NCBI RefSeq assembly: GCF_024502345.1
Contig: NZ_JALDNN010000001.1
Length of the DNA: 64,000 nucleotides
Origin: Escherichia coli
GTDB lineage: Bacteria > Pseudomonadota > Gammaproteobacteria > Enterobacterales > Enterobacteriaceae
Direction: 5' to 3' (one strand)
Part shown: positions 9,354 through 64,000 of the stretch, piece by piece
Numbering within the stretch: position 1 is the stretch's first letter
Layout of the letters: each line of letters starts with the position of its first letter
Notes under the pieces: model-generated
Told to the model about the DNA's origin: nothing
The model's input: the letters and a program-made list of their open reading frames with translations, nothing else
The model's database searches: none
Made by a program: the position numbers and the translations under genes

Positions 9354-10655
<1,302 letters not shown>

Positions 10656-10755
10656 TCAAAATCACCGTTTGCTTAAAAATGGATTCTACCATCGCTTTTT
10701 CAGAGTTACAGCACTTTTTGCACTCAAAAATGACCTCGATCAGTCTGTTTTTTGT

Positions 10756-10953
10756 TCAGCCAATCGTTTTCCTCAACATGTAGTAGACCACAACGCCCGC
10801 AACCACAAGTCCACCGCCAAAACGACGTAAAATATTATCGGGCAAATTGGTCATCGCAGAGATCATCTTCTTCCATGCCTTCGGGTAAAGCATCGGCCCT
10901 AAACCTTCCAGTACCAAAACCAGGGCAAGCGCCAGCCAGATTGTCGAATTCAT
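10756..10953 (-). CDS. yjeT: Small membrane protein YjeT
   Basis: 65-aa hydrophobic ORF between purA and hflC. Confidence 0.75.
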   Translation of the reverse strand: MNSTIWLALALVLVLEGLGPMLYPKAWKKMISAMTNLPDNILRRFGGGLVVAGVVVYYMLRKTIG

Positions 10954-13301: not shown

Positions 13302-13386
13302 GTTTGTGCTCCATATTTGTTATGCGGTGATCCCTGTTGTCTTTCGACGCCAGAGGATATGACTCCACGCTTCAGACGCTACGCCG

Positions 13387-14667: not shown

Positions 14668-14743
14668 GCGTATAACCCTCTAAATAGATCAGCGGGGAAC
14701 GCAGGATCGCTAGCTCCCCGTGTAAAAAAAACAGCCCGAAACC

Positions 14744-22678: not shown

Positions 22679-22754
<76 letters not shown>

Positions 22755-22789
22755 TTGGGTGGTCTGTGCCTTACAGCACTTTCAAATTT

Positions 22790-22865
<76 letters not shown>

Positions 22866-22901
22866 TTGGGTGGTCTGTGCTTTGCAGCACTTTTCAAATT
22901 T

Positions 22902-22977
<76 letters not shown>

Positions 22978-30943: not shown

Positions 30944-31161
30944 GAAACCATCCTTCATTTCAGCGCGTGTATAAAACGCGCCCACTGAACTGCACTGCCC
31001 AACATTGAGCGGGCAGCGTAAAAACCAATACAGAATTGATACCTGGATGATATCAAATATCCAGTCTTAAATTGTGGCCTTTAGCGGAAAAATGAAAACA
31101 TATGCTACAGAATGGCGCTTATCACGCCATTCTTCGCTGTTAATTCAGTAATTTTTCAGAA

Positions 31162-40152: not shown

Positions 40153-40184
40153 CTGATTAAACAGGGAAGTCAAACATTAAAATT

Positions 40185-40293
<109 letters not shown>

Positions 40294-40546
40294 TACGCAA
40301 GTACAGCAACCTGTCATTAAACTGGGAAATTTAATCTTTGCCCGTTGCATAACCTTTAATTATTCATATACATTGCTGTTGTTACTCTTTATATAGCTAA
40401 CACCAATAATTAACCTTTCTTTTCTGTTTATATAGAGTGAGCACGGCTACTTATGTTATTTTAACAACTATTATTACCAAGCCCATTCATCTGGCTTATA
40501 AATTAAAATTAATTATTTAATTGAGAAATGGTTAGGGAGAACCTAC

Positions 40547-41416
40547 ATGGCCATAAGCATCAAGGGTGTTAATACCGGTGTTATTCGCAAGAGTAATAAT
40601 TTCATTGCACTGGCGCTGAAAATTAAGGAACCTCGCAATAAAGAATCGTTGTTCTTTATGTCTGTCATGGAACTGCGCGACCTGCTGATTGCGCTGGAAA
40701 GTCGTCTGCATCAAAAGCATAAACTGGATGCTGCTGCACGCCTTCAGTATGAGCAAGCTCGCGATAAAGTCATTAAGAAAATGGCAGAAAATATCCCAGA
40801 AATTCTGGTTGATGAGCTTAAAAATGCCGATATTAATCGTCGGGTTAACACGCTGGAACTTACCGATAATCAAGGCGAAAATCTTACCTTCGTATTAACG
40901 CTACATGACGGTAGCAAATGTGAGTTAGTCGTCAATGAGTTGCAGATTGAAATGCTGGCGCGAGCAATCATTCATGCAATTAATAATGCAGAAATGCGCG
41001 AACTGGCATTACGTATTACCTCACTGTTAGATTTCCTGCCGTTATACGACGTTGACTGCCAGGAAAATGGCAATCTGGAATATGACACCTATTCCCAACC
41101 GGAATGGAAACATAACTTGTTCGACCATTATCTGGCGGTGCTTTACCGCTTTAAAGATGAAAGTGGCAAAGAACAATTTAGCGGCGCAGTGGTGAAAACG
41201 CGTGAAGCAACGCCGGGTAAAGAAATAGAGGCGATCACTCGCCGAATGCTTGATTTCAGCCCACGACTGAAAAAACTCGCGGGTGTGCCATGTCAGGTCT
41301 ATGTTCGCACCGTAGCGGCGAATAACGCCCAACCGCTAACCCAGGATCAATGCTTACGCGCGCTGCATCACTTACGTGTTCAATCCACCAGCAAAACTGC
41401 ACCACAGGCGAAATAA
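40547..41416 (+). CDS. yjeJ: Conserved protein YjeJ
   Basis: 289-aa ORF; AT-rich upstream region; synteny. Confidence 0.75.
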   Translation: MAISIKGVNTGVIRKSNNFIALALKIKEPRNKESLFFMSVMELRDLLIALESRLHQKHKLDAAARLQYEQARDKVIKKMAENIPEILVDELKNADINRRVNTLELTDNQGENLTFVLTLHDGSKCELVVNELQIEMLARAIIHAINNAEMRELALRITSLLDFLPLYDVDCQENGNLEYDTYSQPEWKHNLFDHYLAVLYRFKDESGKEQFSGAVVKTREATPGKEIEAITRRMLDFSPRLKKLAGVPCQVYVRTVAANNAQPLTQDQCLRALHHLRVQSTSKTAPQAK

Positions 41417-45630: not shown

Positions 45631-46107
45631 TTAATCCTGGCGATCGTCTTTATGATCAAGGCGGTCGCGGTCATCATCCTTTCGCTGGTACTCACCATCA
45701 AAAGTATTACCGCCACCGGTCCCGGCGCTAAAACCGCCGCCTGGCATACGAGAAAAGCGCAAATGCGGCATCAACTTCACTGTCAGATGCTTTTGCACCG
45801 GCGGCAATAAAAGCAGAAGACCGAGGAAGTCGGTGAAAAAGCCCGGTAATAAAAGCAGCAAACCGGCAATGATCAGCGAAACACTTTTAATCATCTCCGC
45901 CGCTGGGTTTTCACCCGCCGCCATTTTTTGCTGCATCAGCACGAAATTCTTAAAGCCCTGGTTACGTACCAGTGACATACCGATAACTGACGTGAATATA
46001 ACCAGCACGAGGGTCAGCAATACCCCCAATACATGGGCAACCTGAATAAAGATTGAAATCTCAATATAGACATAAAGGAAAATGGCAATAAAAGGTAACC
46101 AGCGCAA
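45631..46107 (-). CDS. fxsA: Inner-membrane protein FxsA
   Basis: 158-aa ORF, synteny upstream of aspA. Confidence 0.85.
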   Translation of the reverse strand: MRWLPFIAIFLYVYIEISIFIQVAHVLGVLLTLVLVIFTSVIGMSLVRNQGFKNFVLMQQKMAAGENPAAEMIKSVSLIIAGLLLLLPGFFTDFLGLLLLLPPVQKHLTVKLMPHLRFSRMPGGGFSAGTGGGNTFDGEYQRKDDDRDRLDHKDDRQD

Positions 46108-46443
46108 AGGTTTCTCCTGTAATAGCAGCCGGTAAAACCCGGCTACCTGAATGGGTTGCGAATCGCGTTCAGCTTATATTGTGGTCATTAGCAAAATTTC
46201 AAGATGTTTGCGCAACTATTTTTGGTAGTAATCCCAAAGCGGTGATCTATTTCACAAATTAATAATTAAGGGGTAAAAACCGACACTTAAAGTGATCCAG
46301 ATTACGGTAGAAATCCTCAAGCAGCATATGATCTCGGGTATTCGGTCGATGCAGGGGATAATCGTCGGTCGAAAAACATTCGAAACCACATATATTCTGT
46401 GTGTTTAAAGCAAATCATTGGCAGCTTGAAAAAGAAGGTTCAC

Positions 46444-47880
46444 ATGTCAAACAACATTCGTATCGAAGAAGATCTGTTGGGTACCAGGGAAGTTCCAGCT
46501 GATGCCTACTATGGTGTTCACACTCTGAGAGCGATTGAAAACTTCTATATCAGCAACAACAAAATCAGTGATATTCCTGAATTTGTTCGCGGTATGGTAA
46601 TGGTTAAAAAAGCCGCAGCTATGGCAAACAAAGAGCTGCAAACCATTCCTAAAAGTGTAGCGAATGCCATCATTGCCGCATGTGATGAAGTCCTGAACAA
46701 CGGAAAATGCATGGATCAGTTCCCGGTAGACGTCTACCAGGGCGGCGCAGGTACTTCCGTAAACATGAACACCAACGAAGTGCTGGCCAATATCGGTCTG
46801 GAACTGATGGGTCACCAGAAAGGTGAATATCAGTACCTGAACCCGAACGACCATGTTAACAAATGTCAGTCCACTAACGACGCCTACCCGACCGGTTTCC
46901 GTATCGCAGTTTACTCTTCCCTGATTAAGCTGGTAGATGCGATTAACCAACTGCGTGAAGGCTTTGAACGTAAAGCTGTCGAATTCCAGGACATCCTGAA
47001 AATGGGGCGTACCCAGCTGCAGGACGCAGTACCGATGACCCTCGGTCAGGAATTCCGCGCTTTCAGCATCCTGCTGAAAGAAGAAGTGAAAAACATCCAA
47101 CGTACCGCTGAACTGCTGCTGGAAGTTAACCTTGGCGCAACAGCAATCGGTACTGGTCTGAACACGCCGAAAGAGTACTCTCCGCTGGCAGTGAAAAAAC
47201 TGGCTGAAGTTACTGGCTTCCCATGCGTACCGGCTGAAGACCTGATCGAAGCGACCTCTGACTGCGGCGCTTATGTTATGGTTCACGGCGCGCTGAAACG
47301 CCTGGCTGTGAAGATGTCCAAAATCTGTAACGACCTGCGCTTGCTCTCTTCTGGTCCACGTGCCGGCCTGAACGAGATCAACCTGCCGGAACTGCAGGCG
47401 GGCTCTTCCATCATGCCAGCTAAAGTAAACCCGGTTGTTCCGGAAGTGGTTAACCAGGTATGCTTCAAAGTCATCGGTAACGACACCACTGTTACCATGG
47501 CAGCAGAAGCAGGTCAACTGCAGTTGAACGTTATGGAGCCGGTCATTGGCCAGGCTATGTTCGAATCCGTTCACATTCTGACCAACGCTTGCTACAACCT
47601 GCTGGAAAAATGCATTAACGGCATCACTGCTAACAAAGAAGTGTGCGAAGGTTACGTTTACAACTCTATCGGTATCGTTACTTACCTGAACCCGTTCATC
47701 GGTCACCACAACGGTGACATCGTGGGTAAAATCTGTGCCGAAACCGGTAAGAGTGTACGTGAAGTCGTTCTGGAACGCGGTCTGTTGACTGAAGCGGAAC
47801 TTGACGATATTTTCTCCGTACAGAATCTGATGCACCCGGCTTACAAAGCAAAACGCTATACTGATGAAAGCGAACAGTAA
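46444..47880 (+). CDS. aspA: Aspartate ammonia-lyase
   Basis: ORF 46399..47880; start at [24 protein letters not shown] (478 aa); fumarase/aspartase GSSxMPxKxN motif. Confidence 0.95.
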
Positions 47881-52144: not shown

Positions 52145-52220
52145 GCCCGGATAGCTCAGTCGGTAGAGCAGGGGATTGAAAATCCCCGTGTCCTTGGTTC
52201 GATTCCGAGTCCGGGCACCA
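52145..52220 (+). tRNA. pheU: tRNA-Phe (GAA)
   Basis: GCCCGGATAGCTCAGTCGGTAGAGCAGGGGATTGAAAATCCCCGTGTCCTTGGTTCGATTCCGAGTCCGGGCACCA, 76 nt with GAA anticodon. Confidence 0.95.
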
Positions 52221-53071
52221 ATATTCATAAGGCCTCGCTGCAAAGCGGGGCTTTTTCCTTTTCTGGCTACGGTAGATTTCTGGTCGTTGCGGCACGTTAT
52301 TTGTTTGCTGGATTTCTCGCCATTTTCGCAGTTGTTCGTTACTTTTAGACACCTCAACATCCTTTGATGTACCTTTTCCTAACCTCACAGCTACGGTCTT
52401 TCTACGGTCCTCTACGATTCCTTTCTCTCAGAGCATTCATAATAAAGTAGAAAATACGGGGAAAACGGGGGAATTATCATTTCGCCCTAATCCGCAGGTC
52501 TTAACGTGATTTTGTCGCGGGGAATAAGGTGGGGAAATCCCCAATAGCAAGCGGGGAAATCTGGCAGCATACCCCCTCCACCATTCACATGGGGATCTTC
52601 ACCAGTCCGTCCACCTACAACAAGCTCTTCTTGCCCTTTCACTTCTTACCGTTTTCAGAATCCCCCGTTCTCCACGCCATCATAAAATGATTTATCCGTA
52701 AGCTTAACGTAATGGACTGTTGAACCTGAGTGTCCGCTGTGAGCGAAAAGCGGAACTTCTCACATAGGTAATGAAGCGTTTCCTAACGTCAGGGTGTACT
52801 AATCAACGAAGAGCAGGTCAGAGGACTCGAACCGCTTTCCTCTTCCATCTACGTAGAATTCCAAGAATTTATGTGCTTTCCAGTTACAATTTAGCCATGC
52901 TAAGTTAGAAAAAGCATTGAGTACCTTAGGATTGTATCGATGATACTCTAAGGATCTTGGAGGCTTGTGAGGCGTAAGGTTCAAAGCCAATAGTTTATTA
53001 ATAGTCACACAAGTGGCTCTATTTTTCGCCTACAAACCTATATTTTTCATACAAATAAAAGAAGTGTATTT

Positions 53072-54490
53072 ATGAATACTCAGCAAATTAAGGTTGGCAG
53101 TGTACCTGAAATTATTGAGCTATTACCAAACTCTAGCGAGCAGGCTGATTCTCATCCTTTCATCCTATCGGCAAACAGTGCATGGGGTGAACAGGGAGCA
53201 GAAATATCAATAGAGAGATTACGCCAAAATATCGAGCCTTGGCTAACAGCTCTCTTCCAATCCGAACATTTAAATTTATTGATAGGTGCGGGTTTAAGCA
53301 CGTCTATTCAAATATCGGCTACAGATTCACCTCCAGCTGGAATGGGTTGGATCAGCGATCTAGCCGTATGTAAAAGTGAAATAGATGCATTTTCTACTCT
53401 GGCTGCCAAAGCTGCAGGTCGCGATAACGGAAATATAGAAGATCAAATTAGAGCTATTAATGAACTTATTAAAGGGCTTGAAATTCTGACAGTGTTGAAT
53501 ACCCCTCAACCTGAAAATCCTCCAGCTCCTCATGCTGCTTATAGAAATCTAAAAACGGATTTAGAAATACTCAAGGGAGAGCTTTCTCGCTGCCTAGGTG
53601 AGTTTTCAAGATCTGTGAGTGCCGGAGAATACTTGATTAAAACTGCTGAACCAAAGCGTAAAGAGGAAACTTTCAACTATCTAGTTAGTTTCTTGATGAG
53701 CTTTGCAAGTAGGACCGCTACTCGCGATAGGTTGCATATTTTTACAACAAACTATGATCGCATTATTGAAGTAGGTGCTGAGCTTGCTGGTTTGAGACTT
53801 ATAGATCGCTTTGTAGGAAGTATCGCTCCAGTGTTTCGATCTTCAAGATTGGAGGTTGATTATCACTATAATCCTCCAGGAATTCGTGGCGAACCAAGAT
53901 ATTTAGAAGGCGTAGCGCGTTTTACTAAGCTTCATGGATCCCTTGATTGGCATGAACAAAATAGCGCGATTAGGCGCTTTGGTTTACCTTTTGGAGCACG
54001 TTCTGTTGAACCTTTTTTAGAAGCTGAAGGCCATCAAAGCAACAGCTTTGAACAACTTATGATTTACCCTAACTCAGTAAAAGATAGAGAAACTGCCGAG
54101 TACCCTTATGTTGAGCTATTTCGAGATCTAGCCGCAGCAACTAGCCGCCCAAATAGCACATTAGTCACCTATGGCTATAGCTTTGGTGATGAGCATATCA
54201 ACAGGGTAATTGAAGACATGCTTACAGTGCCTTCGACTCATGTAGTCATAATTGCCTTCGGAGATCCGCTTGGAAGAATCATAAATTTCATTAATAAGAG
54301 TGGAAGAAAAGCACAGATCACCCTATTAATGGGAGACCATTTAGGAGACCTCAAGACTTTAGTTGATAACTATTTACCTAAACCAGCTATTGATAAAGCA
54401 TCAATAAAAATGACTGAATTGCTTAAGCAAAGAGGATTTATCCAGCCCAAAGAATTAGGTAATTCAACTGGCTCCGAGGTATCACAATGA
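53072..54490 (+). CDS. SIR2-like NAD-binding protein (candidate NADase effector of a SIR2-HerA defence pair)
   Basis: 472-aa ORF with Rossmann GAGxS (LLIGAGLSTS), a sirtuin TQNID-like motif (FTTNYDRIIE) and a catalytic-His motif (FTKLHGSLDWHE); AT-rich. Confidence 0.7.
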   Translation: MNTQQIKVGSVPEIIELLPNSSEQADSHPFILSANSAWGEQGAEISIERLRQNIEPWLTALFQSEHLNLLIGAGLSTSIQISATDSPPAGMGWISDLAVCKSEIDAFSTLAAKAAGRDNGNIEDQIRAINELIKGLEILTVLNTPQPENPPAPHAAYRNLKTDLEILKGELSRCLGEFSRSVSAGEYLIKTAEPKRKEETFNYLVSFLMSFASRTATRDRLHIFTTNYDRIIEVGAELAGLRLIDRFVGSIAPVFRSSRLEVDYHYNPPGIRGEPRYLEGVARFTKLHGSLDWHEQNSAIRRFGLPFGARSVEPFLEAEGHQSNSFEQLMIYPNSVKDRETAEYPYVELFRDLAAATSRPNSTLVTYGYSFGDEHINRVIEDMLTVPSTHVVIIAFGDPLGRIINFINKSGRKAQITLLMGDHLGDLKTLVDNYLPKPAIDKASIKMTELLKQRGFIQPKELGNSTGSEVSQ

Positions 54491-56520
54491 GTTACTTACC
54501 AATAGAAAGATTAGAACAATTAAGAATTGGATCTGTTGGATTTGTATCACCTAATGAAATTAGAGTTTCTTTAGAGATTGACTCCCCTGATTCAGTGTCA
54601 CTTCAAGGCGGTTCCCCCCGCAATTTTCCTCGAATAAATAGTTATGTACTGATCAGTAGCGATGATGGATTTCTCGTCGGACAGGTTGAATGGATTGCCG
54701 TAGAACACTCTCCATACCCCAAAAGAAGAGGCTTACAAGATTTTGGCTTGATAGATCTTCCTTTTCCACTTAAAAAGCTCAGTATCAATCCCGTTGGTAC
54801 TTTGAGAGTCGATAGAAAAAACGAAGATTACAAGTTCACAAGAGGAACAGATGCTTTTCCCTCGGTTGGTGACTCCGTGCTCCTGCCTACTGACCGGCAA
54901 TTAAAATCAATAATAGAATCAGGTGACAATAGAAGAGTAAAAATAGGGGACAGCCCCCTAGCTAACAATGCGGAAATAAAAGTGGACCCTGATAGGCTTT
55001 TTGGACGACATTTAGCTGTTTTGGGCAATACAGGTAGTGGTAAATCATGCTCGGTTGCGGGGTTAATTCAATGGTCTTTAGATGCTGTTTTACAACAGGG
55101 ACAGATTCCAAATGCTCGGTTCATAATACTTGATCCAAATGGAGAATACAGTAGGGCATTCGGCCCAGAATCAAAATACAAGGGTAAGCTATTACGTGTA
55201 GAAGCTAACACTGGTGCTGAAGAGATAGATCTTAAAGTTCCGTCATGGTTATGGAATAGCTCTGAGTGGGGTGCTTTCACTCAAGCGAGTTCAAAAGTTC
55301 AACTTCCTTTACTACGCCGAGCTTTGAGGGCGATGAGAAATGATGTTTTATCAGAAGATGATGTGACAATCCAAGCGAAACACTTCTGCGGTATCCTACT
55401 CGTATCCATACGACAATTATCAAGCCAAGGCCAGATATATGTGAATGGCGGCCATGCCAAAGGTTTCGTTGATAGTTTAACGTCTTGGAATAATAGCCTG
55501 TCCACATTAAACGACAAAATCGATAACAAACCTTTCGATAATCTAATAAACACGATGAATGTGTATCTTTCCTCTCGTATAGGAATAAAATGGCCTGAAA
55601 AACCTGAAGTTTCAGATACTGATCAGTTGATTAATGAATTAAAAAATGCATATGAAACGCTTGGAGGTGATGAACAAGGACTTCTTCCAAAAAGTGAAGA
55701 TTCGCCTATTCGTTTTAAAGGGGATGATTTTGTCGCATACCTAGAAGCTCTAGCTCAAGAGACAGGCACAGAGCAATTCGTTGAATTCCTTTTGACTCGT
55801 ATTCGAACAATGCTAGGTGACACCCGTATAAGTGCAGTAACAAATGATTCGGAACAGCCTATCAGTTTAACTAATTGGTTAGACACTTTTCTCGGTAGAG
55901 ATGGACAAGGTTCCATAACTGTTATCGATTTATCGCTAGTCCCTAATGAAATAATACATTTGGTAACTGCTGTAATTTCCAGAGTAACTTTTGAAGCATT
56001 ACAACGTTATCGAAGACTTAAGGGGAAACCACTACCAACAGTTATGGTTGCAGAAGAAGCGCATACATTTATTAAACGCTACAAAGAAGATAGTGAGGGT
56101 CAGTCAGTCTCTGACGTATGCTGCAAAGTGTTTGAAAAGATCGCACGTGAAGGCAGGAAATTTGGGTTAGGTCTTGTAGTTTCTTCCCAACGACCCTCAG
56201 AGCTATCTCCGACTGTGTTATCTCAATGTAATACTTTTTTGTTGCACAGGATTAGTAATGATAGAGATCAAGAGCAAGTCCATAGACTTGTTCCCGATAA
56301 CATGAGGGGGTTGTTGAGGGAGTTGCCATCGCTACCATCTCGGCATGCCATTCTACTAGGATGGGCTTCTGAACTTCCGGTTTTAGTTAGAATGAAAGAG
56401 CTTACTGAAAAACAAAGACCACAATCTGACGATCCCGATTTTTGGGATGTGTGGTCTAACACTACAGAAGAGCCTCGCGAAGTTAATTGGCAACCAATAG
56501 CTGATGATTGGCAAAGTTAA
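54487..56520 (+). CDS. HerA/FtsK-like P-loop ATPase (candidate partner of the SIR2-like protein)
   Basis: 677-aa ORF; Walker A LAVLGNTGSGKS, Walker B VMVAEEAHTF, downstream VVSSQRPSEL motif; ATG overlaps the upstream stop (ATGA), consistent with translational coupling. Confidence 0.75.
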   Translation: MSYLPIERLEQLRIGSVGFVSPNEIRVSLEIDSPDSVSLQGGSPRNFPRINSYVLISSDDGFLVGQVEWIAVEHSPYPKRRGLQDFGLIDLPFPLKKLSINPVGTLRVDRKNEDYKFTRGTDAFPSVGDSVLLPTDRQLKSIIESGDNRRVKIGDSPLANNAEIKVDPDRLFGRHLAVLGNTGSGKSCSVAGLIQWSLDAVLQQGQIPNARFIILDPNGEYSRAFGPESKYKGKLLRVEANTGAEEIDLKVPSWLWNSSEWGAFTQASSKVQLPLLRRALRAMRNDVLSEDDVTIQAKHFCGILLVSIRQLSSQGQIYVNGGHAKGFVDSLTSWNNSLSTLNDKIDNKPFDNLINTMNVYLSSRIGIKWPEKPEVSDTDQLINELKNAYETLGGDEQGLLPKSEDSPIRFKGDDFVAYLEALAQETGTEQFVEFLLTRIRTMLGDTRISAVTNDSEQPISLTNWLDTFLGRDGQGSITVIDLSLVPNEIIHLVTAVISRVTFEALQRYRRLKGKPLPTVMVAEEAHTFIKRYKEDSEGQSVSDVCCKVFEKIAREGRKFGLGLVVSSQRPSELSPTVLSQCNTFLLHRISNDRDQEQVHRLVPDNMRGLLRELPSLPSRHAILLGWASELPVLVRMKELTEKQRPQSDDPDFWDVWSNTTEEPREVNWQPIADDWQS

Positions 56521-56941
56521 TTAACTTAACTAATTTTTAGTAGTGTTATAAGTAGTGGCTTATATCTGACATGACAGTTTAGGTTAGTAGTTTCAATCTA
56601 ACAGTAAGTGTCCACGGTGACGTTTTCATACTCAAATCTCCTGAAATGTGGGAGATTTGAGTATGGTTGTCCCTTATGAGCGAGGAGCGGAAGTTCTGCT
56701 TTAAGTGTATCAAACCCTCCAGCAAAGATGTTCTTGAATGTAATGCCATAATTTCCCTAACATTCCAGCACAAATCAATTAACTCTCAGTCCATAGTGTA
56801 TTTTACTTAAATTAAAATCAAATACTCTAGGAATTAAAATAACAAGATCACTTGCGATTATGCTATTTTAAATTAATATTTTTGTTTTTACTGGGGAACC
56901 TTCAAAACACGGAGCCAGATTTCTTCGTAGCTACCCTGTTG

Positions 56942-57766
56942 CTAGGGTTTCAAGTATTCCCCTAAAGGAAAGAAATTTTTTGACAACTTTTGGGATTCAG
57001 CAATTTTAACCAAATAAATATAGAATCCCAACAGAGCACTGTTCTCGCTTTCCCCCCTCGAATAGTGAACATGCCCAGGCACCTTCCGGATGAGGAAACC
57101 ATTATTTTTTACCAAATAATACCCTCTATCTAAAATTGTAATTACATCAGGCATATCATCTAAATCGATATTATTTCCAGTCATGTAATTAAACAGCGAA
57201 TCTCGTAAGGTACTTTCCTCTGGACCTTGGAAGGCTAGTAGTAAGAATGGTGTTTTTCTCAAGGTTGCACACATCCCTGAGATTTCCTCTACTAATTGCA
57301 CTGTATTTTGGGGAATATTTTCTTTCATAAAATAACCATCGTCAATACCGATTGGATTGATTCTTACCAAACCTTTTGACCTAACGCAAGCATCTAAGGT
57401 TGTCTTAAGGTTTGAAGCTCCTTCGGTCATTGAGCCAGTGTTTAATGAAGATTTACATTCAATTAACGCTAAAGCTGAATCGACAGGGACCATACACTGA
57501 TCTTTATCATAACTAAGTTTTAAAGAATGTTTCGAGTATATGATAATATCCATCTGACTTGAGAGATTATCCTTAGAGTCAAAAACCTGTCCTGATGTAA
57601 TATCTAAATTACTAGGGAGATTTGCTTTTAAAAATTCCCTTATTACAATTTCTCTAGCACTTCCTTTGCTACTCCCGTTCGTCGTTATGGATGACAAATT
57701 AAATGCTGAAACCAAAGATGCCGTATGGTTTTTTAAGTGTTTCTGGATTAATTTCATAAAGCTCAT
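56942..57766 (-). CDS. Hypothetical protein, possible PD-(D/E)xK-type nuclease
   Basis: 274-aa AT-rich ORF convergent with the SIR2/HerA operon; contains D...ExK-like residues (QMDIIIY ... ALIECK); start codon uncertain. Confidence 0.4.
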   Translation of the reverse strand: MSFMKLIQKHLKNHTASLVSAFNLSSITTNGSSKGSAREIVIREFLKANLPSNLDITSGQVFDSKDNLSSQMDIIIYSKHSLKLSYDKDQCMVPVDSALALIECKSSLNTGSMTEGASNLKTTLDACVRSKGLVRINPIGIDDGYFMKENIPQNTVQLVEEISGMCATLRKTPFLLLAFQGPEESTLRDSLFNYMTGNNIDLDDMPDVITILDRGYYLVKNNGFLIRKVPGHVHYSRGESENSALLGFYIYLVKIAESQKLSKNFFPLGEYLKP

Positions 57767-58194
57767 TCCATTTTAATTTATCTACATCGCTTAAAGGCAA
57801 ATGATGCCACCGGCTACCAATTAAAAATTATCTCAACCTGAGAGATTTTTCCAGACTCCAAACGAAAATAAAAAACTACTCGTCACGTCCCTCCTGGCAC
57901 ATAGCCGACACCAAAACCAGCAACATATGGACAACGGTCCCTGCCCTGATGGCAGGTAATTGTATCAGACTTAAACACATATTATTTCTGTGAACTCCCC
58001 CCAACGGCAGTCCTTTCCTCTGAAGACCAGAACCAGACCGTAAAGCCTGCTCTTTCTGCATTTCCCGTATTAATTCATACCATGTGGCACCAGCATTCCC
58101 TTCGCCACACCAGAAAATCAATTCCCCAATAAAAAAGTGCCGTGCCGGGGATGGGTCAACCCTGACGTTCTTTACACCAGTCACAGGAGGTTAT

Positions 58195-59379
58195 ATGTCC
58201 ACCCCCAAACGCTTCCGTTTTACTAATCAGCTCATTAAATCCCTGCCCCCTAACACATCCGATGCACGCAGTACCGATGCCGAATACAGCGACACCGAGA
58301 TTTCCGGCCTCAAGTGTCTGGTCAGCAGAAGAGAAGGTCGTAAAAAGTTTTTGCTACGCTACCTTTATCATGGACGAAAACGCGCCATCGCCATTGGTCA
58401 CTGGCCTGAAGTGGACGTCAATCTTGCTCGTCAGATTGCCATAGAACACAAACGTTCCCTTGCCACCGGCACTGACCCTAAGCAGGAGCGTGAAAACAAG
58501 AGAATGGAGCTGACGTTCGATGAACTCTTTAATCAGCATTATCTGCCATGGGCAAAATCCGCTAAACGCAGTTGGGGAAAGGATGTTCAGCGCTACCGCG
58601 ATCATATCCGTCCCGCCATTGGTCAGAGGCTGCTGAGCGATATCACACCAGCGAGCATTCTGCGCCTTCAGCAGACGTTAAGTACTTCCCTGTCAGCAGC
58701 TACCTGTAACCGTGTCATCGTACTCATTAAAGCCGTCTTTACATGGGCCGGAAGGCAAAGCATGACCTCTGTCCATCCGGCAAGGGTGGTACAGCTTCTC
58801 AGGGAGAACAACGCCCGACAGCGCTATTTCACCGAGGACGAAATTCGTCGTATTTTTCTCTCCGCCGATAACGATACCAGCCCCGTCGCGGCCCGCTATG
58901 TCAAACTGTTGTTACTGACCGGCCTTCGTCGTGATGAGCTGCGTCTGGCTAAGTGGGAGCATGTTGACCCGGTTAAACGCACCCTGTGGCTCCCGGAAAC
59001 CAAGAATGGCTATGGGCGGATTGTTCACCTTAACTCACTGGCGATGGACGTAATCAGAACGCTGCCAACGCAGCGGGGAAATCCGTGGTTGTTTATCGGT
59101 AAAAAACAAGGAATGCCGCTGAATAACCCCGTTAAAGCCTTTCAGCGTATCGTTCGTCGGGCGGGAATTTTCGACCAGGAAGTGTGTATTCATACCTGCC
59201 GCCATTCGGTTGCCGCCCTCATCGTGTCCTACGGCGGAACACTGTATGACGTTCAGGCTCAACTGGGGCACCGCAGCAGTCAGTCTTCACAACGTTATGC
59301 GCATCTTCACCCTCAGCGCTTACAAAACACCAGTCAGTTACTGGCGGAAAGGATAACGGCTCAGCTACCGTCCTTGTGA
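58195..59379 (+). CDS. Tyrosine recombinase / phage-type (P4-like) integrase
   Basis: ATG at 58195 preceded by AGGAGG; 394 aa; C-terminal catalytic R..HxxR..Y signature (HTCRHSVAALIVSYGG ... LGHRSSQSSQRYAHL). Confidence 0.85.
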   Translation: MSTPKRFRFTNQLIKSLPPNTSDARSTDAEYSDTEISGLKCLVSRREGRKKFLLRYLYHGRKRAIAIGHWPEVDVNLARQIAIEHKRSLATGTDPKQERENKRMELTFDELFNQHYLPWAKSAKRSWGKDVQRYRDHIRPAIGQRLLSDITPASILRLQQTLSTSLSAATCNRVIVLIKAVFTWAGRQSMTSVHPARVVQLLRENNARQRYFTEDEIRRIFLSADNDTSPVAARYVKLLLLTGLRRDELRLAKWEHVDPVKRTLWLPETKNGYGRIVHLNSLAMDVIRTLPTQRGNPWLFIGKKQGMPLNNPVKAFQRIVRRAGIFDQEVCIHTCRHSVAALIVSYGGTLYDVQAQLGHRSSQSSQRYAHLHPQRLQNTSQLLAERITAQLPSL

Positions 59380-59389
59380 TAACAGAAAA

Positions 59390-59418
59390 GCAGAGGCAAG
59401 TGCCCCTGCTTTTTTTTT
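59390..59418 (+). terminator. Rho-independent terminator between convergent genes
   Basis: Hairpin gcagaggcaagtgcccctgc followed by a run of nine T. Confidence 0.6.
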
Positions 59419-59434
59419 ACTGTTCAGCCATCAG

Positions 59435-59791
59435 TCAGAACGGGATGGCCCCATATTCTTCATCCGGCACCCGGTTATCATCAAATCTGTTATAGAGTTC
59501 ACGAGCACACTCGCGCGCGTCTTTAATAGACATACGAGGGAACCTGCCGAGGGGTTCATAATAGCAGGCCCCTTCAAGCGTATAACGAGCCAGGAATTTA
59601 ATCTCACCGTTGGCAATGACGGCCCGGAGCGCAGGCTCGCTGCCATCGAAGATTTCACGAGAAATGCCGTGATAAAGGCACTCCGCCAGTGTGTTAACCA
59701 GAGCGTAATCATTGAATGAGGTTTTTTCTTCATTTTCGCTGCTGATAGCGTGAGGAAAACCGTCATAGTACTGGTCTGATTCAAAAATCAT
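59435..59791 (-). CDS. Hypothetical protein
   Basis: 118-aa ORF downstream of the replication-like gene; no recognisable motif. Confidence 0.35.
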   Translation of the reverse strand: MIFESDQYYDGFPHAISSENEEKTSFNDYALVNTLAECLYHGISREIFDGSEPALRAVIANGEIKFLARYTLEGACYYEPLGRFPRMSIKDARECARELYNRFDDNRVPDEEYGAIPF

Positions 59792-59840
59792 ACATCACCT
59801 TCTATTGGTTGTTATTCAGTCAAAATGGTTTTATTCAGGG

Positions 59841-61769
59841 TTAAAATTCGGTCATCACATTGCATTTCAGAAACGCTTTTTTGACCTGGTAGTAAGACTG
59901 CGCCATCGTCTTCAGCGCTCTTTTTTTATAGTGTCCGGCACTTTCGCCAAGCAGATAACCGGAACGCTCTAACGGTCTGGCCACATCAACGGTCTTAAGT
60001 CCCTTTTCAGAACAGAGCTTTTCAAACACCGATTCATAAATCAGGAAGTCGCCGGTTTTGTAATGGACGAATCCCCACATATCTCCCGGGCATCGGGCAT
60101 GTTCGTCACGCAGGGTGATAAAGTGCCTGCTGCTTTTTGTCACCAGCGTCAGCTGAAGCTCCTCCAGCATGTTACGCACCGGGTTATACTGATTCTGGTT
60201 ATCATCCAGCCAGCGTCGTGCAGCGGACATAACGGATTCAGCCACCGCATCGCTTTCGAAAGGTAAAAGGCCATATTTCAGCGCCTTCTCTCCTGCCAGC
60301 CATACCAGCGCAAATCTTTTCAGTCCGCGCCGCTGAACGCGGGTAATATCACGCCCCTCATCCCTCAGGGCCTCTTCCAGTGCGTTACAGCAATCATCTG
60401 TCTGTTCCTGGAGCCAGGATGAAAACTCTGCGTAGGTGCGAAGACCGCCAGCCGTATTTTTCCCGGATAACAGTTTGCCGATAAATGCAGGCCCGGCATG
60501 ACCATAAGCCTCTGCCAGCCCCGTCTTCAGTGCATCTGCACGGGCACGTGTTTCTGATACCGGTTCATCCGGTTTTTGAGCATCCTCAGGCAACAGTTCC
60601 ATACTGATGGCCCTGTGCTCCTGCCCTCCCTGTAACACGGCTTTCTGTTCAGCCAGCTTTTCGGAGATTGACATCTCACCGGTGGAGAGAATAAACATGC
60701 GCCATTTAAACGGCTCATCTGCCGTCAGGCCACGGTTCAGGCGCTCTTTTGCCGTACCTGACGTAATGTTGTAAAGCAGTGAGGAAAGTTGCTTATGATT
60801 ACTCGCACCCAGTTCATCGACGCAGGCGACCAGACCGGAATAGTCAGCGAGAAGGCGCTCCATCGCGTTAGGCGTGGTATTCCAGCGAATAATATTTACA
60901 TTCCCCCCACTACCCGGCTCGCTGCCATCACCATGGACCGATGCAGCCAGCATCAGGAGAAGCGTTTTACCGGTGGTGGATACGCCGTGAAAATGAAACA
61001 TGCCCACATCCATACCGGCAGGAACCAGAAGCATCGAAGCAAAGGACGCACTCAGTGCAAAGGTCTGCGCCCAGCCATGGACATTTTCCCGGATGAGGTT
61101 AATCCACTCCTCCAGGGCCCCACCTTTGTGCAGTCCGGGACGCACGCGGAATCCCGGCAGTAGATAATCAAACCCGGTCAGAGAGGTCACAACGGGCTCA
61201 TGACCATGTAAAAAGGCCATATCCTCCGAAACGAATCCCATCGCATCTGCCATCAGATAGACAGGCAGCGGTAAACTCCGGCAGCGCTGAAGAAAACGGT
61301 CAAAAAGGGCAAACTGCTGTGGAGAGGAGCCAACACAAAATCCACGATCTGCCAGTTTGCCTACTACCTGAGCACCGCTCTGAACAATATCCTCAAAGCG
61401 TACCAGGGCCTTAACATACTTACCCAGCCCGTTACCGGTCATCAGGCTGATCCCAAGACCGGACTCCTTATCTTTTCCACAAAACAGGGCGACAGGCACA
61501 ACTGGCGTGGTGCAAACCTGCACAGGTTTCTGTCCACCGATGTAGAAAAGGCCATTAGCCGTATTCACATAATGCCGTGGCAGCCCATCACCAATACCGA
61601 GTGAAGCGATATCATCTTCACCGACCTCAGTGTTTTCAGCACGCCTGATAATTGCTTCCGACATTTTGTTGAAATTTTTATCGCGGTCAGCAAAAGCGCG
61701 AATACGCTTAATCCCGGAAACCTTAGGAACATTAGTTGTCACTTTTTTATTCATGTGTATTACCATCAA
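59841..61769 (-). CDS. P-loop NTPase, putative primase/helicase-like replication protein of an integrative element
   Basis: 642-aa ORF with Walker A (HGVSTTGKTLL) and a DE box (VACVDELG); immediately downstream of an integrase; start codon uncertain. Confidence 0.5.
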   Translation of the reverse strand: MMVIHMNKKVTTNVPKVSGIKRIRAFADRDKNFNKMSEAIIRRAENTEVGEDDIASLGIGDGLPRHYVNTANGLFYIGGQKPVQVCTTPVVPVALFCGKDKESGLGISLMTGNGLGKYVKALVRFEDIVQSGAQVVGKLADRGFCVGSSPQQFALFDRFLQRCRSLPLPVYLMADAMGFVSEDMAFLHGHEPVVTSLTGFDYLLPGFRVRPGLHKGGALEEWINLIRENVHGWAQTFALSASFASMLLVPAGMDVGMFHFHGVSTTGKTLLLMLAASVHGDGSEPGSGGNVNIIRWNTTPNAMERLLADYSGLVACVDELGASNHKQLSSLLYNITSGTAKERLNRGLTADEPFKWRMFILSTGEMSISEKLAEQKAVLQGGQEHRAISMELLPEDAQKPDEPVSETRARADALKTGLAEAYGHAGPAFIGKLLSGKNTAGGLRTYAEFSSWLQEQTDDCCNALEEALRDEGRDITRVQRRGLKRFALVWLAGEKALKYGLLPFESDAVAESVMSAARRWLDDNQNQYNPVRNMLEELQLTLVTKSSRHFITLRDEHARCPGDMWGFVHYKTGDFLIYESVFEKLCSEKGLKTVDVARPLERSGYLLGESAGHYKKRALKTMAQSYYQVKKAFLKCNVMTEF

Positions 61770-61838
61770 ATTACGCCACCGTCAGAAAACGGGTGCATCA
61801 GAACCATAGTTAAAAACCATACCGTTGAGTGAAGGTTG

Positions 61839-63251
61839 TTACCCCATCGCCCGGTTAACGACTTCGTGGTAACGCGCCGGGGAAGCGTGCAAGTAAAGCT
61901 CCGTTACTTTGATAGTGCTGTGACCCAATAAGTCTTTGACGGTGTGAATGTCGGCCCCGCTCTCAATGAGCTTTGTCGCAAAGGTATGACGCATCTCATG
62001 GATGGTGAACGGTGGAATACCCGCAGCCTCACAAAGTCGTTTTTGCAGGCGACGCGGCTCAGCAACCGGATTGTCGGTTCCCTTGCCCGGAAATACCCAG
62101 CCTTCATCACCCAGATGCTGACGCTGTTCTGTCAGAAGAACGAAAGCCTTATCACATACCGGTACACGGCGTAGTTTGCCGTTTTTGGTATGGCGAAGGG
62201 TGATAACCTTGCGGCTCCAGTCCACATCTTCAAGACGAAGGTGACGGGTTTCCCCCAGACGCAGCCCCGTCAGGGCAAGGAACATGAGAAGAGCAAGGGC
62301 TTCATGATCGGGTTTACCATTACGCCAGCGCTCACAGACGTCCATCCAGCGCTGAAGCTGGGAGTCATCCATGGCACGGCGATCTGACGTCACTTCAGGC
62401 AGCGCTTTGATATAAAGCGCCGGAGAGCGGCTGATGTATCCCATGCGTATAGCCCAGGTAAACACCGCTTTAATGAGCGCCAGATGGCGGTTGCGGGTGG
62501 CAGGCTTGAGATCGAGATTATGCAGATAGCTCAGAATATCTGCCTCCGTCATACCTGCCAGCTTTTTGTCACCGAGAAGAGGGCGCAGGTATTTACGGAT
62601 CTTAGAAAGGTCGGTGTTAGCTGAACGCTTAACGCCCGTGCTGAGTACGCTTTTCTCATACTCATCCACAAGCTCATTAAACGTCATTTTACTGTGAGTA
62701 AGAAAACGCTCACCGTAAGCCTCAACGGCGGTCTTGAGCTCCTGAATTATTTTAAAGGCATGCTCCCTTGCATCTTTAATTGAAATTTCCGGGTAGCCTC
62801 CTACGGCAACGTAGATATTCTTTCCGCGAATACTTTTGCGGACAATAAATTTAATGCGACCTGATGGATAGAATATTGCCTTAAGTCCGGTTAACTTCTT
62901 ATCGCTGGTCTCGATTGTTTGTGCAGCTTGTACTGCACGGATTTTATATTCATCAAAAAGGGCTTTAGTAAAAACACCTCCAGTATTTTTAGGTGCAACC
63001 CCTGGATATTCTACAACATCAGATACTCCAGAGTCGGAATACCCCTGAGCTTCCACATCTACATTGAAGGAATTTTTATGAGCAGCTGTGATGCTCTTTT
63101 CATCCAGCACTTGCGTTATTTTATTTAAAGGGTAATTAACTTTCATAATATGTACATGGTCCTCTGAAAATTCAGATGATAATGAGTAATTTAATATGTC
63201 GGCCAACAATGGGATAAGCTTATTTATTCGTGGCATCACTTTCAAGCCCAT
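61839..63251 (-). CDS. Tyrosine recombinase / integrase (second copy, distinct sequence)
   Basis: 470-aa ORF; catalytic signature RLGETRHL ... HEMRHTFATKLIESG ... LGHSTIKVTELYLH. Confidence 0.8.
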   Translation of the reverse strand: MGLKVMPRINKLIPLLADILNYSLSSEFSEDHVHIMKVNYPLNKITQVLDEKSITAAHKNSFNVDVEAQGYSDSGVSDVVEYPGVAPKNTGGVFTKALFDEYKIRAVQAAQTIETSDKKLTGLKAIFYPSGRIKFIVRKSIRGKNIYVAVGGYPEISIKDAREHAFKIIQELKTAVEAYGERFLTHSKMTFNELVDEYEKSVLSTGVKRSANTDLSKIRKYLRPLLGDKKLAGMTEADILSYLHNLDLKPATRNRHLALIKAVFTWAIRMGYISRSPALYIKALPEVTSDRRAMDDSQLQRWMDVCERWRNGKPDHEALALLMFLALTGLRLGETRHLRLEDVDWSRKVITLRHTKNGKLRRVPVCDKAFVLLTEQRQHLGDEGWVFPGKGTDNPVAEPRRLQKRLCEAAGIPPFTIHEMRHTFATKLIESGADIHTVKDLLGHSTIKVTELYLHASPARYHEVVNRAMG

Positions 63252-63479
63252 GAAAAATCAGCTCTTACATGCCCATTGACATTTAATACTCAAGTCAGAA
63301 AGACCATGATGATTCATCAGGAGTACTCCTGCTCAGGGAAAAGGGAAAATAGCGTTAAACCCTATAAAAAAATTGTGTTCCGGATGCATCGCCCAAAGTA
63401 AGTCAACTTTTGAGGCCCTGAAGGGCTTTGTTGAATAAATCAGATTTCGGGTAAGTCTCCCCCGTAGCGGGTTGTGTTT

Positions 63480-63884
63480 TCAGGCAATACGCACGCTTTC
63501 AGGCATACCTGCTTTCGTCATTTTGTTCAGCGCTCGTACCAGGGCCATAGCCTCCGCAACCTGACCATCGTAGTCACGCAGCGTCAGTGAACCCCCGAAC
63601 AGCTGTTTTACCCGGTACATCGCCGTTTCCGCTATCGAGCGACGGTTGTAATCTGTTGTCCATTTCCACCGCGCATTACGCTGATTAGCCACTGCACGGT
63701 TACGGTCTGCATATTCACCGGGCCAGTAACCCGCACCTTTTCGGGGAGGGATAAGCGCGCTGATTTTCTTACGCCGCAGTTCATCGTGACAGAGCCGGGT
63801 GTCGTAAGCGCCGTCTGCCGATGCTGCCCTGATTTTTCTGTGAGTCTGCCGGATAAGACCCGGGAAGGCTTCTGAGTCCGTCAC
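63480..63884 (-). mobile_element. IS5-family DDE transposase, C-terminal fragment (truncated or frameshifted)
   Basis: 134-aa ORF with DGAYDT and RSIAETAMYRVKQLFG (IS5-type D..E region); reading frame breaks upstream. Confidence 0.55.
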
Positions 63885-64000
63885 ATTGTTCAGCGACAGG
63901 TCAGCGCAGATGATTTCATGTGTTTTACTGTCAACGGCGAGATGCAGCTTACGCCAGATACGGCGGCGTTCCTGGCCATGCTTTTTGACTTTCCACTCGC

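What the first reader, a model, noticed from the sequence alone, without database searches (positions are those of the whole stretch)
58195..63251. Two different tyrosine recombinases in opposite orientation suggest a composite or tandemly accreted island
One integrase (58195-59379, plus strand) has a P4-like N-terminus. The other (61839-63251, minus strand) is unrelated in sequence and is followed by a large P-loop replication-like protein and a small ORF, an integrase-plus-replication module reminiscent of satellite-like integrative elements. Neither integrase is adjacent to the tRNA, which is unusual; the defence cassette occupies the tRNA-proximal position.
Basis: partly seen in the sequence, partly recalled or inferred. 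Interest (0 to 1): 0.5.

Follow-up and report, generated by a model that had tools for sequence, protein, structure and literature searches.

The report
Two-integrase, pipolin-like defence island
The two integrase genes are not remnants of two islands joined end to end; they are the conserved core of one small mobile island at a tRNA-Phe gene that carries anti-phage genes and is a relative of 'pipolins' with a helicase in place of the pipolin DNA polymerase.

Summary
Int1 (58195-59379, +) and Int2 (61839-63251, -) are intact tyrosine recombinases. They flank a Cch/SaPI-Rep-like DUF927 helicase and a small arm-domain ORF, downstream of pheU tRNA-Phe and a SIR2-HerA cassette. They are not 'unrelated': 31% identity over 352 aa, with the same domain order.

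Tandem accretion is not supported. No internal att copy exists. In intact relatives a single perfect 49-bp repeat of the tRNA-Phe 3' part flanks the whole 14-21 kb island. The arrangement int1 / (arm ORF) / DUF927 / int2 / R1-R2-DUF2787-LRAT is kept in every lineage examined, down to 39% DUF927 identity. It occurs at pheU and pheV in 133 of 5426 complete E. coli genomes and in other Enterobacterales.

The backbone (Int1, two orphans, DUF2787) is homologous to the gammaproteobacterial pipolin core, and pipolins also carry two integrases. No piPolB is present, so this is a piPolB-less, pipolin-like island.

The int2-DUF927 segment behaves as an exchangeable ~4.3 kb cassette: Int2 56% and DUF927 46% identical where Int1 and the backbone are 92-99%.

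Inferred: Int1 performs tRNA-Phe integration. Int2 serves the replication module; its exact role is unknown. Ordinary in kind, a new variant in detail.

The parts
52145..52220 (+). tRNA-Phe (pheU, downstream of yjdC/dicD). Its 3' 49 nt (52172-52220, anticodon stem to CCA) form the attL identity block.
   Evidence: ARAGORN and Rfam. The same 49-nt block recurs as attR in L003, L011 and L013, and as 43 nt in L004.
52221..52758 (+). Conserved attL-proximal arm of the island (the putative P' arm of attP). It holds repeated motifs: CTACGGT x4, CGGGG(G)AA x6-7, and GGTAGATTTCTGGT, which is shared with the attR arm.
   Evidence: Alignment of 9 islands. attR arm alignment. Extent of conservation.
52759..57887 (.). 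Variable cargo slot, 37-41% G+C. In this window it holds SIR2 (53072-54490, +), HerA (54487-56520, +) and a PD-(D/E)xK/NucC-like gene (56942-57766, -).
   Evidence: PADLOC and NCBIfam. Slot boundaries from blastn against 7 islands. Composition. Other islands carry other cargo here, or none in L011.
57888..58194 (+). Conserved int1 upstream region with the operator-like motif ACACATATTATTTCTGTG at 57975-57992.
   Evidence: Alignment of 13 islands. The motif recurs upstream of R1 in L003.
58195..59379 (+). int1: tyrosine integrase of P4/IntSXT type, 394 aa. Inferred to be the tRNA-Phe integrase.
   Evidence: It is 42% identical to the att-adjacent integrase of an enterobacterial pipolin, E=4e-108.
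59380..59417 (.). Hairpin-plus-T-run terminator shared by the convergent genes. It marks the left boundary of the exchangeable cassette.
   Evidence: (I2).
59435..59791 (-). Small ORF of 118 aa: a stand-alone Int2-like arm-type DNA-binding domain. It is an accessory gene, present in four of the nine further lineages examined.
   Evidence: Pfam Arm-DNA-bind_3, E=1e-4. RefSeq name. It is 40% identical to the Int2 arm domain. Orthologues are 37-71% identical.
59841..61769 (-). DUF927 P-loop helicase with a C-terminal Cch-type HTH. It is the putative replication initiator-helicase and the most variable core gene.
   Evidence: Variability.
61839..63251 (-). int2: second tyrosine integrase, 470 aa as the longest ORF. 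The N-terminal ~93 aa are variable and possibly not translated.
   Evidence: Its best pipolin match is the polymerase-adjacent integrase: 29% identity, E=2e-44.
63252..63423 (.). Remaining 172 bp of the int2 upstream intergenic region, which is AT-rich and lineage-specific. It is cut by an IS.
63424..64000 (-). IS903-like (IS5 family) element inserted upstream of int2. It runs off the window and hides the rest of the island.
   Evidence: Terminal inverted repeat visible at 63424. IS5-family transposase.

Best explanation
Both integrases belong to one mobile element. It is a ~14-21 kb integrative island that targets the anticodon-stem-to-3'-end part of tRNA-Phe genes (pheU and pheV). Anti-phage cargo sits at both ends around a conserved core. 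The core is a mosaic that has become fixed. One part is a pipolin-type backbone: an IntSXT/P4-like Int1, two orphan genes, DUF2787, LRAT, a small HTH protein and a WYL-type regulator. The other part is an 'integrase + replication' module: Int2, a Cch/SaPI-Rep-like DUF927 helicase, and in some lineages a stand-alone arm-binding protein. This module occupies the role that IntP2-excisionase-piPolB has in pipolins. Shown here: the single att pair, the conserved architecture, the homology to pipolin core genes, the absence of piPolB, the cassette-like exchange of the int2-DUF927 segment, the variable defence slot between the attL arm and int1, and intact catalytic residues in both integrases. Inferred: Int1 carries out integration and excision at tRNA-Phe, using the conserved arm sites. 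After excision the circle is replicated by the DUF927 helicase from an origin inside the cassette. Int2 acts on a cassette-specific site rather than on the tRNA att, for example to resolve replicated multimers or to provide a second, cassette-linked recombination function. Transfer between cells must depend on a helper, because no packaging or conjugation genes are present.
For: Single element. There is no second copy of the tRNA 3' end in the window or in L001/L002, allowing up to 3 mismatches. A perfect 49-bp direct repeat encloses both integrases in L003 (21.4 kb), L011 (13.7 kb) and L013 (16.7 kb).

Conserved architecture. Nine further lineages, with DUF927 at 39-82% identity, keep the order int2 > DUF927 > (small ORF) < int1 next to R1-R2-DUF2787-LRAT. 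In six of them a tRNA-Phe gene lies on the fetched DNA. The block is found in Enterobacter, Kluyvera, Buttiauxella and Mixta at 93-96% identity. It matches 133 of 5426 complete E. coli genomes, always on the chromosome.

Pipolin relationship. Against a tRNA-Leu pipolin, Int1 is 42% identical, R1 30%, R2 42% and DUF2787 42% to the att-adjacent integrase, orphans and DUF2787. Int2 is 29% identical to the polymerase-adjacent integrase. The pipolin core, and 'piPolB-less pipolin-like islands', are described in PMC11551731.

Cassette exchange. In L013, Int1 is 95% and R1-R9 are 87-99% identical, but Int2 is 56% and DUF927 46%. The boundaries lie just after the int1 terminator and ~45 bp upstream of R1. 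In L019, Int2 is 80% but DUF927 47%.

Int1 as the tRNA-Phe integrase. The att arms are conserved (82-88% nucleotide identity, shared motifs) together with the Int1 arm domain (80-98%). The Int2 arm domain is only 27-50% identical between lineages. In the cargo-less L011 the attL arm runs straight into int1, 747 bp from the tRNA.

Active enzymes. R-K-H-R-H-Y is invariant in 10 Int1 and 10 Int2 sequences.

Replication role. The helicase has DUF927 + HTH_56, matches PDB 5dgk and 8tch, and has distant homologues on small plasmids and phages annotated as helicase or primase.
Against: No excision, circular form or replication was observed. A search for the predicted attP junction found nothing in viral or metagenome contigs. 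The assignment of Int1 to the tRNA att rests on co-variation only, and integrases 56% identical can still share a site. No origin, Int2 target site or recombination directionality factor was identified; repeat and promoter scans of the cassette were uninformative. In this window an IS903-like element cuts the island 172 bp upstream of int2. The right half (R genes, second cargo zone, attR) is not visible, so this copy may be truncated and immobile. Gene order differs from true pipolins, and Int2 resembles the pipolin second integrase only weakly.
Confidence: 0.6

Rival explanations
1. Tandem accretion. Two independent islands, each with its own integrase, integrated one after the other at tRNA-Phe, and the internal att site was later lost.
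For: Tandem arrays at tRNA-Phe do occur. In L011 a third integrase starts 177 bp after attR of this island, and L022 has a CP4-like island upstream of an int1 remnant. The core is evolutionarily a fusion of two module types.
Against: There is no internal att in any copy. The same layout is conserved in every lineage, including those with Int1 70% and Int2 53% identical. int2 points towards the tRNA and lies in the middle of the element. The int2-DUF927 block has no att-like repeats at its ends. True tandem neighbours are delimited by att copies with the integrase beside them.
Confidence: 0.07
2. Nested element. The int2-DUF927(-arm ORF) block is a separate minimal integrative, replicative element. 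It inserts by Int2 into a specific site between int1 and R1 of the host island, and different variants replace one another there.
For: A ~4.3 kb block is replaced with sharp boundaries inside otherwise 92-99% identical islands. Integrase plus replication protein is a typical minimal element. In L018 and in pipolins the IntSXT-type integrase is directly followed by the orphan genes, as if the site were unoccupied, and the int2-HTH_17-DUF927 block sits elsewhere.
Against: There are no direct or inverted repeats at the block boundaries. Breakpoints differ between lineages: in L019, Int2 is 80% but DUF927 47%, which fits homologous recombination better. The block was never seen without int1 in the sampled rows of the 133 matching E. 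coli genomes. No empty-site version of the tRNA-Phe family was found.
Confidence: 0.18
3. Reversed roles. Int2 is the tRNA-Phe integrase and Int1 is accessory, for example acting in cargo capture next to the variable slot.
For: Int2 is co-transcribed with the replication gene, as in int-rep satellites. The variable slot abuts the int1 upstream region.
Against: The att core and arms stay conserved while the Int2 arm domain drops to 27-50% identity. Int1 co-varies with the att arms. Int1 is the homologue of the att-adjacent, always-present pipolin integrase. No recombination-site-like repeats flank the cargo.
Confidence: 0.1
4. Obligate pair. Int1 and Int2 work together on the same att site as a heteromeric recombinase, in the manner of XerC/XerD.
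For: The two genes always co-occur, and both keep their catalytic residues.
Against: Int2 is exchanged independently of Int1: 56% against 95% in L013. That is hard to reconcile with a co-evolved heterotetramer acting on an unchanged site.
Confidence: 0.05

Closest known systems
Gammaproteobacterial pipolins of the IntSXT + IntP2-excisionase group (PMC11551731)
   Same: Small tRNA-integrated islands flanked by direct repeats, with defence cargo in two zones and no transfer genes. They carry two tyrosine recombinases in opposite orientation: one beside the att site and followed by orphan genes and DUF2787, the other beside the replication gene. A WYL-type regulator is present. Homology was measured here: Int1 42%, R1 30%, R2 42%, DUF2787 42% and Int2 29% identity to the corresponding pipolin proteins.
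   Different: There is no piPolB; a DUF927/Cch-like helicase takes its place. No excisionase follows int2 in this lineage. The target is tRNA-Phe rather than tRNA-Leu. The int2 module lies between int1 and the orphan genes, and a cargo slot lies between the tRNA and int1. The pipolin authors mention 'piPolB-less, pipolin-like islands' with different arrangements but do not describe them.
SCCmec Cch helicase and SaPI Rep replication modules
   Same: The DUF927 + P-loop + C-terminal Cch HTH architecture matches. The protein aligns by sequence with PDB 5dgk ('Active helicase') and 8tch ('Pathogenicity island protein'), and with NCBIfam SCCmec Cch1. In both cases the replication gene is carried by an integrative island next to its recombinase.
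   Different: SCC elements use serine recombinases (Ccr) and the orfX site. SaPIs carry packaging-interference genes and a single integrase. Identity is low and limited to the ATPase core.
P4-like satellites and PICIs (int-alpA-primase/rep islands with defence hotspots)
   Same: They share an integrase-plus-replication module, tRNA integration and defence genes in a variable hotspot. L018 even has the order int-HTH_17-DUF927.
   Different: No psu/delta/sid/cos, terS, capsid or AlpA genes were detected with PHROGs or NCBIfam. This island has two integrases.
GI-pheV / GI-pheU islands with a P4-type integrase (PMC11537424)
   Same: They use the same tRNA-Phe loci and a P4-type integrase reading away from the tRNA.
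   Different: Those islands have 19-23 bp repeats, intP4 immediately beside the tRNA, sizes up to 110 kb and virulence cargo. Here the repeat is 49 bp and reaches the anticodon stem, cargo lies between the tRNA and int1, and there is a second integrase and a helicase.
Multi-integrase or integrase-only defence islands of the E. coli pan-genome, including GInt/Tn6571 (PMC10121019)
   Same: These are defence-carrying islands whose only recognisable mobility genes are integrases, with unclear means of mobilisation.
   Different: GInt has three integrases plus a small protein and behaves as a transposon. This island has two integrases, a helicase and a tRNA att site.

Membership tests
Pipolin | Primer-independent family-B DNA polymerase (piPolB), the hallmark gene | tested here: not met
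   tblastn with two piPolB proteins (L025, L026) against the window and all family loci gave no hit at E<=0.01. No such gene is annotated in the complete islands L003 and L004.
Pipolin | IntSXT-type tyrosine recombinase near the integration site | tested here: met
   Int1 has Arm-DNA-bind_3. It is 42% identical (E=4e-108) to the tRNA-Leu-adjacent integrase of pipolin L026 and 33% identical to that of Vibrio pipolin L025. Formal classification with the published recombinase HMMs was not done.
Pipolin | Second (IntP2-type) recombinase next to the replication gene, usually followed by an excisionase | tested here: inconclusive
   Int2 lies next to the replication gene, and its best pipolin match is the polymerase-adjacent integrase, but only at 29% identity (E=2e-44), against 27% for the other integrase. 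No excisionase homologue is present in this lineage. The relative L018 has an HTH_17 gene in that position.
Pipolin | DUF2787 gene and two orphan genes in synteny with the att-side integrase; WYL regulator | tested here: met
   This holds in relatives of the window island: R1, R2 and DUF2787 are 30-42% identical to the pipolin genes and in the same order, and R8 has weak WYL/HTH hits. It is not visible in the window itself, where the region lies beyond the IS903-like insertion and the window end.
Pipolin | Integration at the 3' end of a tRNA gene with flanking direct repeats | tested here: met
   A 49-bp repeat of tRNA-Phe flanks L003, L011 and L013. Only attL is visible in the window.
Tandem island array | An att copy between the component islands, each with its integrase beside an att site | tested here: not met
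   Searches found no internal att. A true tandem neighbour in L011, by contrast, is delimited by attR.
P4-like satellite / PICI | Capsid-redirection or packaging genes (psu, delta, sid, cos; terS, ppi, capsid) and AlpA | tested here: not met
   PHROGs and NCBIfam scans of all core proteins found only integrase, primase/helicase and unknown-function families.
SCC-type element | Cch-like helicase together with Ccr serine recombinases | tested here: not met
   The helicase feature is met. The recombinases here are tyrosine type.
Active tyrosine recombinase (each of Int1 and Int2) | Catalytic R-K-H-R-H/W-Y residues | tested here: met
   All six residues are present in the window proteins and in 9 orthologues of each. 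Enzymatic activity cannot be tested with these tools.
GInt / Tn6571 | Three consecutive integrase genes plus a small helix-loop-helix gene | not tested
   No GInt sequences were compared. The gene count and layout differ: two integrases, convergent, with a helicase between them.

The most novel reading that the evidence does not exclude
The int2-DUF927 block may be a self-contained replication-recombination cassette that circulates among a family of polymerase-less, pipolin-like defence islands. Under this reading labour is divided between the two integrases: Int1 handles chromosomal integration at tRNA-Phe, and Int2 (with the stand-alone arm-domain protein as its modulator) handles a cassette-specific site. 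The extreme diversification of the helicase and of the Int2 arm domain would then reflect selection for replicon or helper specificity. This would define a new kind of replicative hitcher element that shuttles anti-phage systems between Enterobacterales.
Probability: 0.25. Interest if true: 0.65.

Novelty: new variant of a known kind. Interest (0 to 1): 0.42.

Why it matters
Many anti-phage systems in E. coli sit in 'integrase-only' islands whose means of movement is unknown. This case gives such an island a defined anatomy: one att pair, long conserved arms, a cargo slot between the attL arm and the integrase, and a swappable integrase-helicase cassette. It also ties the island to pipolins by measured homology. 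That suggests the pipolin backbone can operate with different replication genes, and that a second integrase is a regular part of the design rather than debris. The slot has held at least five kinds of defence cargo. One is a dCTP deaminase in strain AW1.7, a strain from which such a gene was shown experimentally to protect against phage. The family is therefore a practical place to look for new systems and a tractable model for how they spread.

Tried and rejected
Internal att copies. The 25-nt tRNA 3' end, allowing up to 3 mismatches, matched only the tRNA itself in the window, L001 and L002. Repeat searches of whole islands found only the terminal 49-bp (or 43-bp) pair.

Repeats at the cassette boundaries. 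No direct or inverted words of 9 nt are shared between the two ends, so site-specific insertion of the cassette is unsupported.

Origin or Int2 site. Repeat, promoter and terminator scans of the cassette and of the int2-R1 intergenic regions of eight lineages gave only lineage-specific inverted repeats and an AT-rich tract, nothing decisive.

Excised circles. A degenerate 68-nt pattern spanning the predicted attP junction gave 0 hits in viral contigs and 0 in metagenome contigs.

Phage or plasmid origin of the helicase. Only homologues below 31% identity were found.

Structured RNAs. Rfam found only the tRNA.

Small ORF as a decayed third integrase. Rejected, because intact orthologues of 113-145 aa exist in four diverged lineages.

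Shared motif upstream of int1 and R1 as a recombination site. I considered this reading. A shared operator or promoter is more economical, because conservation simply starts at the promoter and a similar motif precedes the pipolin integrase.

Wider distribution. The genome-collection scan with the helicase returned only six close relatives, so deeper lineages had to be reached through protein search and contig look-ups.
Full report
**Observation**

The window is an Escherichia coli pheU region. A TetR-type gene (yjdC/dicD) is followed by tRNA-Phe at 52145-52220. Downstream lie, in order:
- SIR2 (53072-54490) and HerA (54487-56520), both very strong PADLOC matches
- a PD-(D/E)xK/NucC-like gene (56942-57766, minus strand)
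- int1 (58195-59379, plus strand)
- a 118-aa ORF (59435-59791, minus)
- a 642-aa DUF927 protein (59841-61769, minus)
- int2 (61839-63251, minus)
- a partial IS5-family element

Both integrases have the domain order Arm-DNA-bind_3 / central domain / Phage_integrase. Both keep all six catalytic residues.

One statement is wrong. The two proteins are not unrelated: they share 31% identity over 352 residues, E=2e-41. The small ORF is a stand-alone arm-type DNA-binding domain, closest to the N-terminal domain of Int2.

**One island or two?**

The 3' end of tRNA-Phe has no second copy in the window, even allowing 3 mismatches. The window cannot show the right end of the island. An IS903-like element begins at 63424, 172 bp upstream of int2, and runs off the window.

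Relatives show the full picture. The int1-to-int2 block matches 133 of 5426 complete E. coli genomes. All copies are chromosomal, at pheU or pheV. In strain 2018-01-1CC a perfect 49-bp direct repeat encloses a 21.4-kb island that contains both integrases, with no third copy. The repeat runs from the anticodon stem to the CCA end. The same holds for 13.7-kb and 16.7-kb islands of two other lineages.

Real tandem neighbours exist at this tRNA, and they look different. In L011 another integrase begins 177 bp after the attR of this island.

**Conservation of the two-integrase layout**

Right of int2, intact islands carry a conserved set of genes: two small orphans (R1, R2), DUF2787, an LRAT-like gene, a 79-aa HTH gene, DUF3944, and a WYL/HTH regulator. 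A second cargo zone follows, with DUF262, type I or IIG restriction-modification systems and others.

Homologues of the DUF927 protein at 82, 59, 47, 46, 45, 43 and 39% identity were traced to their contigs. In every case the order is int2, DUF927, optional small ORF, then a convergent int1, with the R genes on the other side. Wherever the contig reaches far enough, tRNA-Phe is present.

Near-identical copies (93-96%) occur in Enterobacter, Kluyvera, Buttiauxella and Mixta. This indicates recent transfer between genera. The pairing of the two integrases is therefore ancestral to a family. It is not an accident of this genome.

**Modularity**

The island is nevertheless modular.

*Left cargo slot.* The segment between a conserved ~540-bp attL-side arm and a conserved ~300-bp int1 upstream region is a variable slot (window 52759-57887, 37-41% G+C against ~50% for the core). 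The slot holds different cargo in different islands:
- SIR2-HerA in this window
- another SIR2-HerA subtype plus a PtuA-like pair
- PDC-M01
- a dCTP deaminase in strain AW1.7. A dCTP deaminase gene cloned from that strain protects against phage. That this is the same gene is likely but was not checked.
- an 'ABC-three-component' set
- an EAL-domain gene
- nothing at all in L011, where int1 starts 747 bp from the tRNA

The cargo-less form explains why int1 is not adjacent to the tRNA here. The ancestral arrangement has it adjacent, and cargo has been inserted between the arm and the gene.

*Integrase-helicase cassette.* The int2-DUF927(-small ORF) segment, together with the int2 upstream region (~4.3 kb), is exchanged as a unit. 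In L013, Int1 is 95% and R1-R9 are 87-99% identical to the reference, but Int2 is 56% and DUF927 46%. High identity stops just after the int1 terminator and resumes ~45 bp before R1. No repeats mark these boundaries. Breakpoints differ elsewhere: in L019, Int2 is 80% but DUF927 47%. I therefore favour homologous recombination over site-specific insertion.

**Which integrase does what (inference)**

The att core and both arms are conserved across lineages at 82-88% nucleotide identity. They share repeated motifs, including GGTAGAT(A/T)TCTGGT in both arms.

The arm-binding domain of Int1 is conserved in step with them: 80-98% in the lineages whose att arms were aligned. That of Int2 is the most divergent part of the protein, at 27-50%, while its catalytic domain stays at 69-78%. 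Int1 also lies next to the attL arm in the cargo-less form.

I therefore assign tRNA-Phe integration and excision to Int1. Int2 would act on a site that varies with the cassette, most plausibly in the AT-rich, lineage-specific int2 upstream region.

The DUF927 protein combines DUF927, a P-loop and a Cch-type HTH. It matches the solved SCCmec Cch helicase and a staphylococcal pathogenicity-island protein. Its distant homologues are replication proteins of small plasmids and phages. An excised circle that replicates would need multimer resolution, which is one concrete job for Int2. None of this was observed directly.

**Comparison with known systems**

The closest described family is the gammaproteobacterial pipolins. 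Their core is piPolB, an IntSXT-type integrase near the att site, a second IntP2-type integrase with an excisionase near the polymerase, DUF2787, two orphan genes and a WYL protein, with defence cargo in two modules (PMC11551731).

I retrieved a Vibrio pipolin and an enterobacterial tRNA-Leu pipolin and compared the proteins.

| Protein here | Pipolin counterpart | Identity |
|---|---|---|
| Int1 | att-side integrase | 42% (E=4e-108) |
| R1 | orphan | 30% |
| R2 | orphan | 42% |
| DUF2787 | DUF2787 | 42% |
| Int2 | polymerase-side integrase | 29% (E=2e-44) |

The R1, R2 and DUF2787 counterparts lie in the same order as in this island. In the pipolin the two integrases are also in opposite orientation.

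The hallmark gene is absent: no piPolB in the window or in any family locus. This island is therefore not a pipolin. It fits what the pipolin authors mention in one sentence as possible 'piPolB-less, pipolin-like islands' with other arrangements. [quoted passage not shown] It is not a P4-like satellite or PICI, because it has no packaging or capsid-redirection genes. It is not SCC-like beyond the helicase.

**Verdict**

The tandem-accretion interpretation is not supported.

The finding is a new variant of a known kind: a tRNA-Phe, helicase-bearing relative of pipolins. Its value lies in a clear anatomy and testable roles for the two integrases, not in a surprise of principle. This particular copy is cut by an IS, and its right half is unseen.

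Noticed in passing
window 52221-52758: The conserved attL-side arm is packed with short repeats: CTACGGT x4, and CGGGG(G)AA x6-7 plus an inverted copy. The second motif is tandemly expanded in the Enterobacter island L013. GGTAGATTTCTGGT recurs in the attR arm of complete relatives. These are candidate arm-type sites, but nothing shows which protein binds them.
   Followed up: partly
window 57975-57992; L003 27378-27395: The motif ACACATATTATTTCTGTG, ~205 bp upstream of int1, recurs with 3 mismatches ~45 bp upstream of R1, next to a CATGTAA word in both places. A similar sequence precedes the att-side integrase of a pipolin (end of L026). It probably marks a shared operator or promoter. Both variable segments end at this motif.
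   Followed up: partly
window 56942-57766 (-): A third cargo gene lies beside SIR2-HerA: a 274-aa protein whose N-terminal ~120 residues match PD-(D/E)xK / NucC-type nuclease models (PADLOC E=6e-27). In the closest relative (strain fM51a) IS elements occupy this position instead. Whether it works with SIR2-HerA is unknown.
   Followed up: no
window 63424-64000: An IS903-like (IS5 family) element is inserted 172 bp upstream of int2 and separates int2 from most of its native upstream region. The window ends inside it, so the rest of the island (R genes, second cargo zone, attR) is unseen.
   Followed up: partly
window 62972-63251 (int2 codons 1-93): The N-terminal ~93 codons of the longest int2 ORF, and the DNA upstream, exist in at least two unrelated versions among otherwise 95% identical islands. 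Homology between Int2 lineages starts at about residue 94. The real start codon may lie further downstream.
   Followed up: partly
L023 (E. coli NT1N25, pheV) 9741-10847; L022 (E. coli YZ_2_2) 12095-14731: Decayed copies exist. In L023 the DUF927 gene is deleted, leaving the arm ORF directly next to a shortened int2. In L022 int1 is followed directly by fragments of the WYL and DUF262 genes and by IS1.
   Followed up: no
L018 (metagenome-assembled contig) 2259-10078: A distant relative has the pipolin-like order int1-orphan-orphan-DUF2787, and further on int2-HTH_17-DUF927, all on one strand. It sits next to an acyltransferase gene and no tRNA was detected on the contig. It may represent the unrearranged ancestor or a family with a different target.
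   Followed up: partly
window 22679-22977: Three tandem tRNA-Gly(GCC) genes (glyVXY) lie ~30 kb upstream. This fits the E. coli K-12 map around pheU and is unrelated to the finding.
   Followed up: no
window 30001-31000, 40001-41000, 46001-47000: Further 1-kb bins with low G+C (0.42-0.45) lie outside the island. They were not examined.
   Followed up: no
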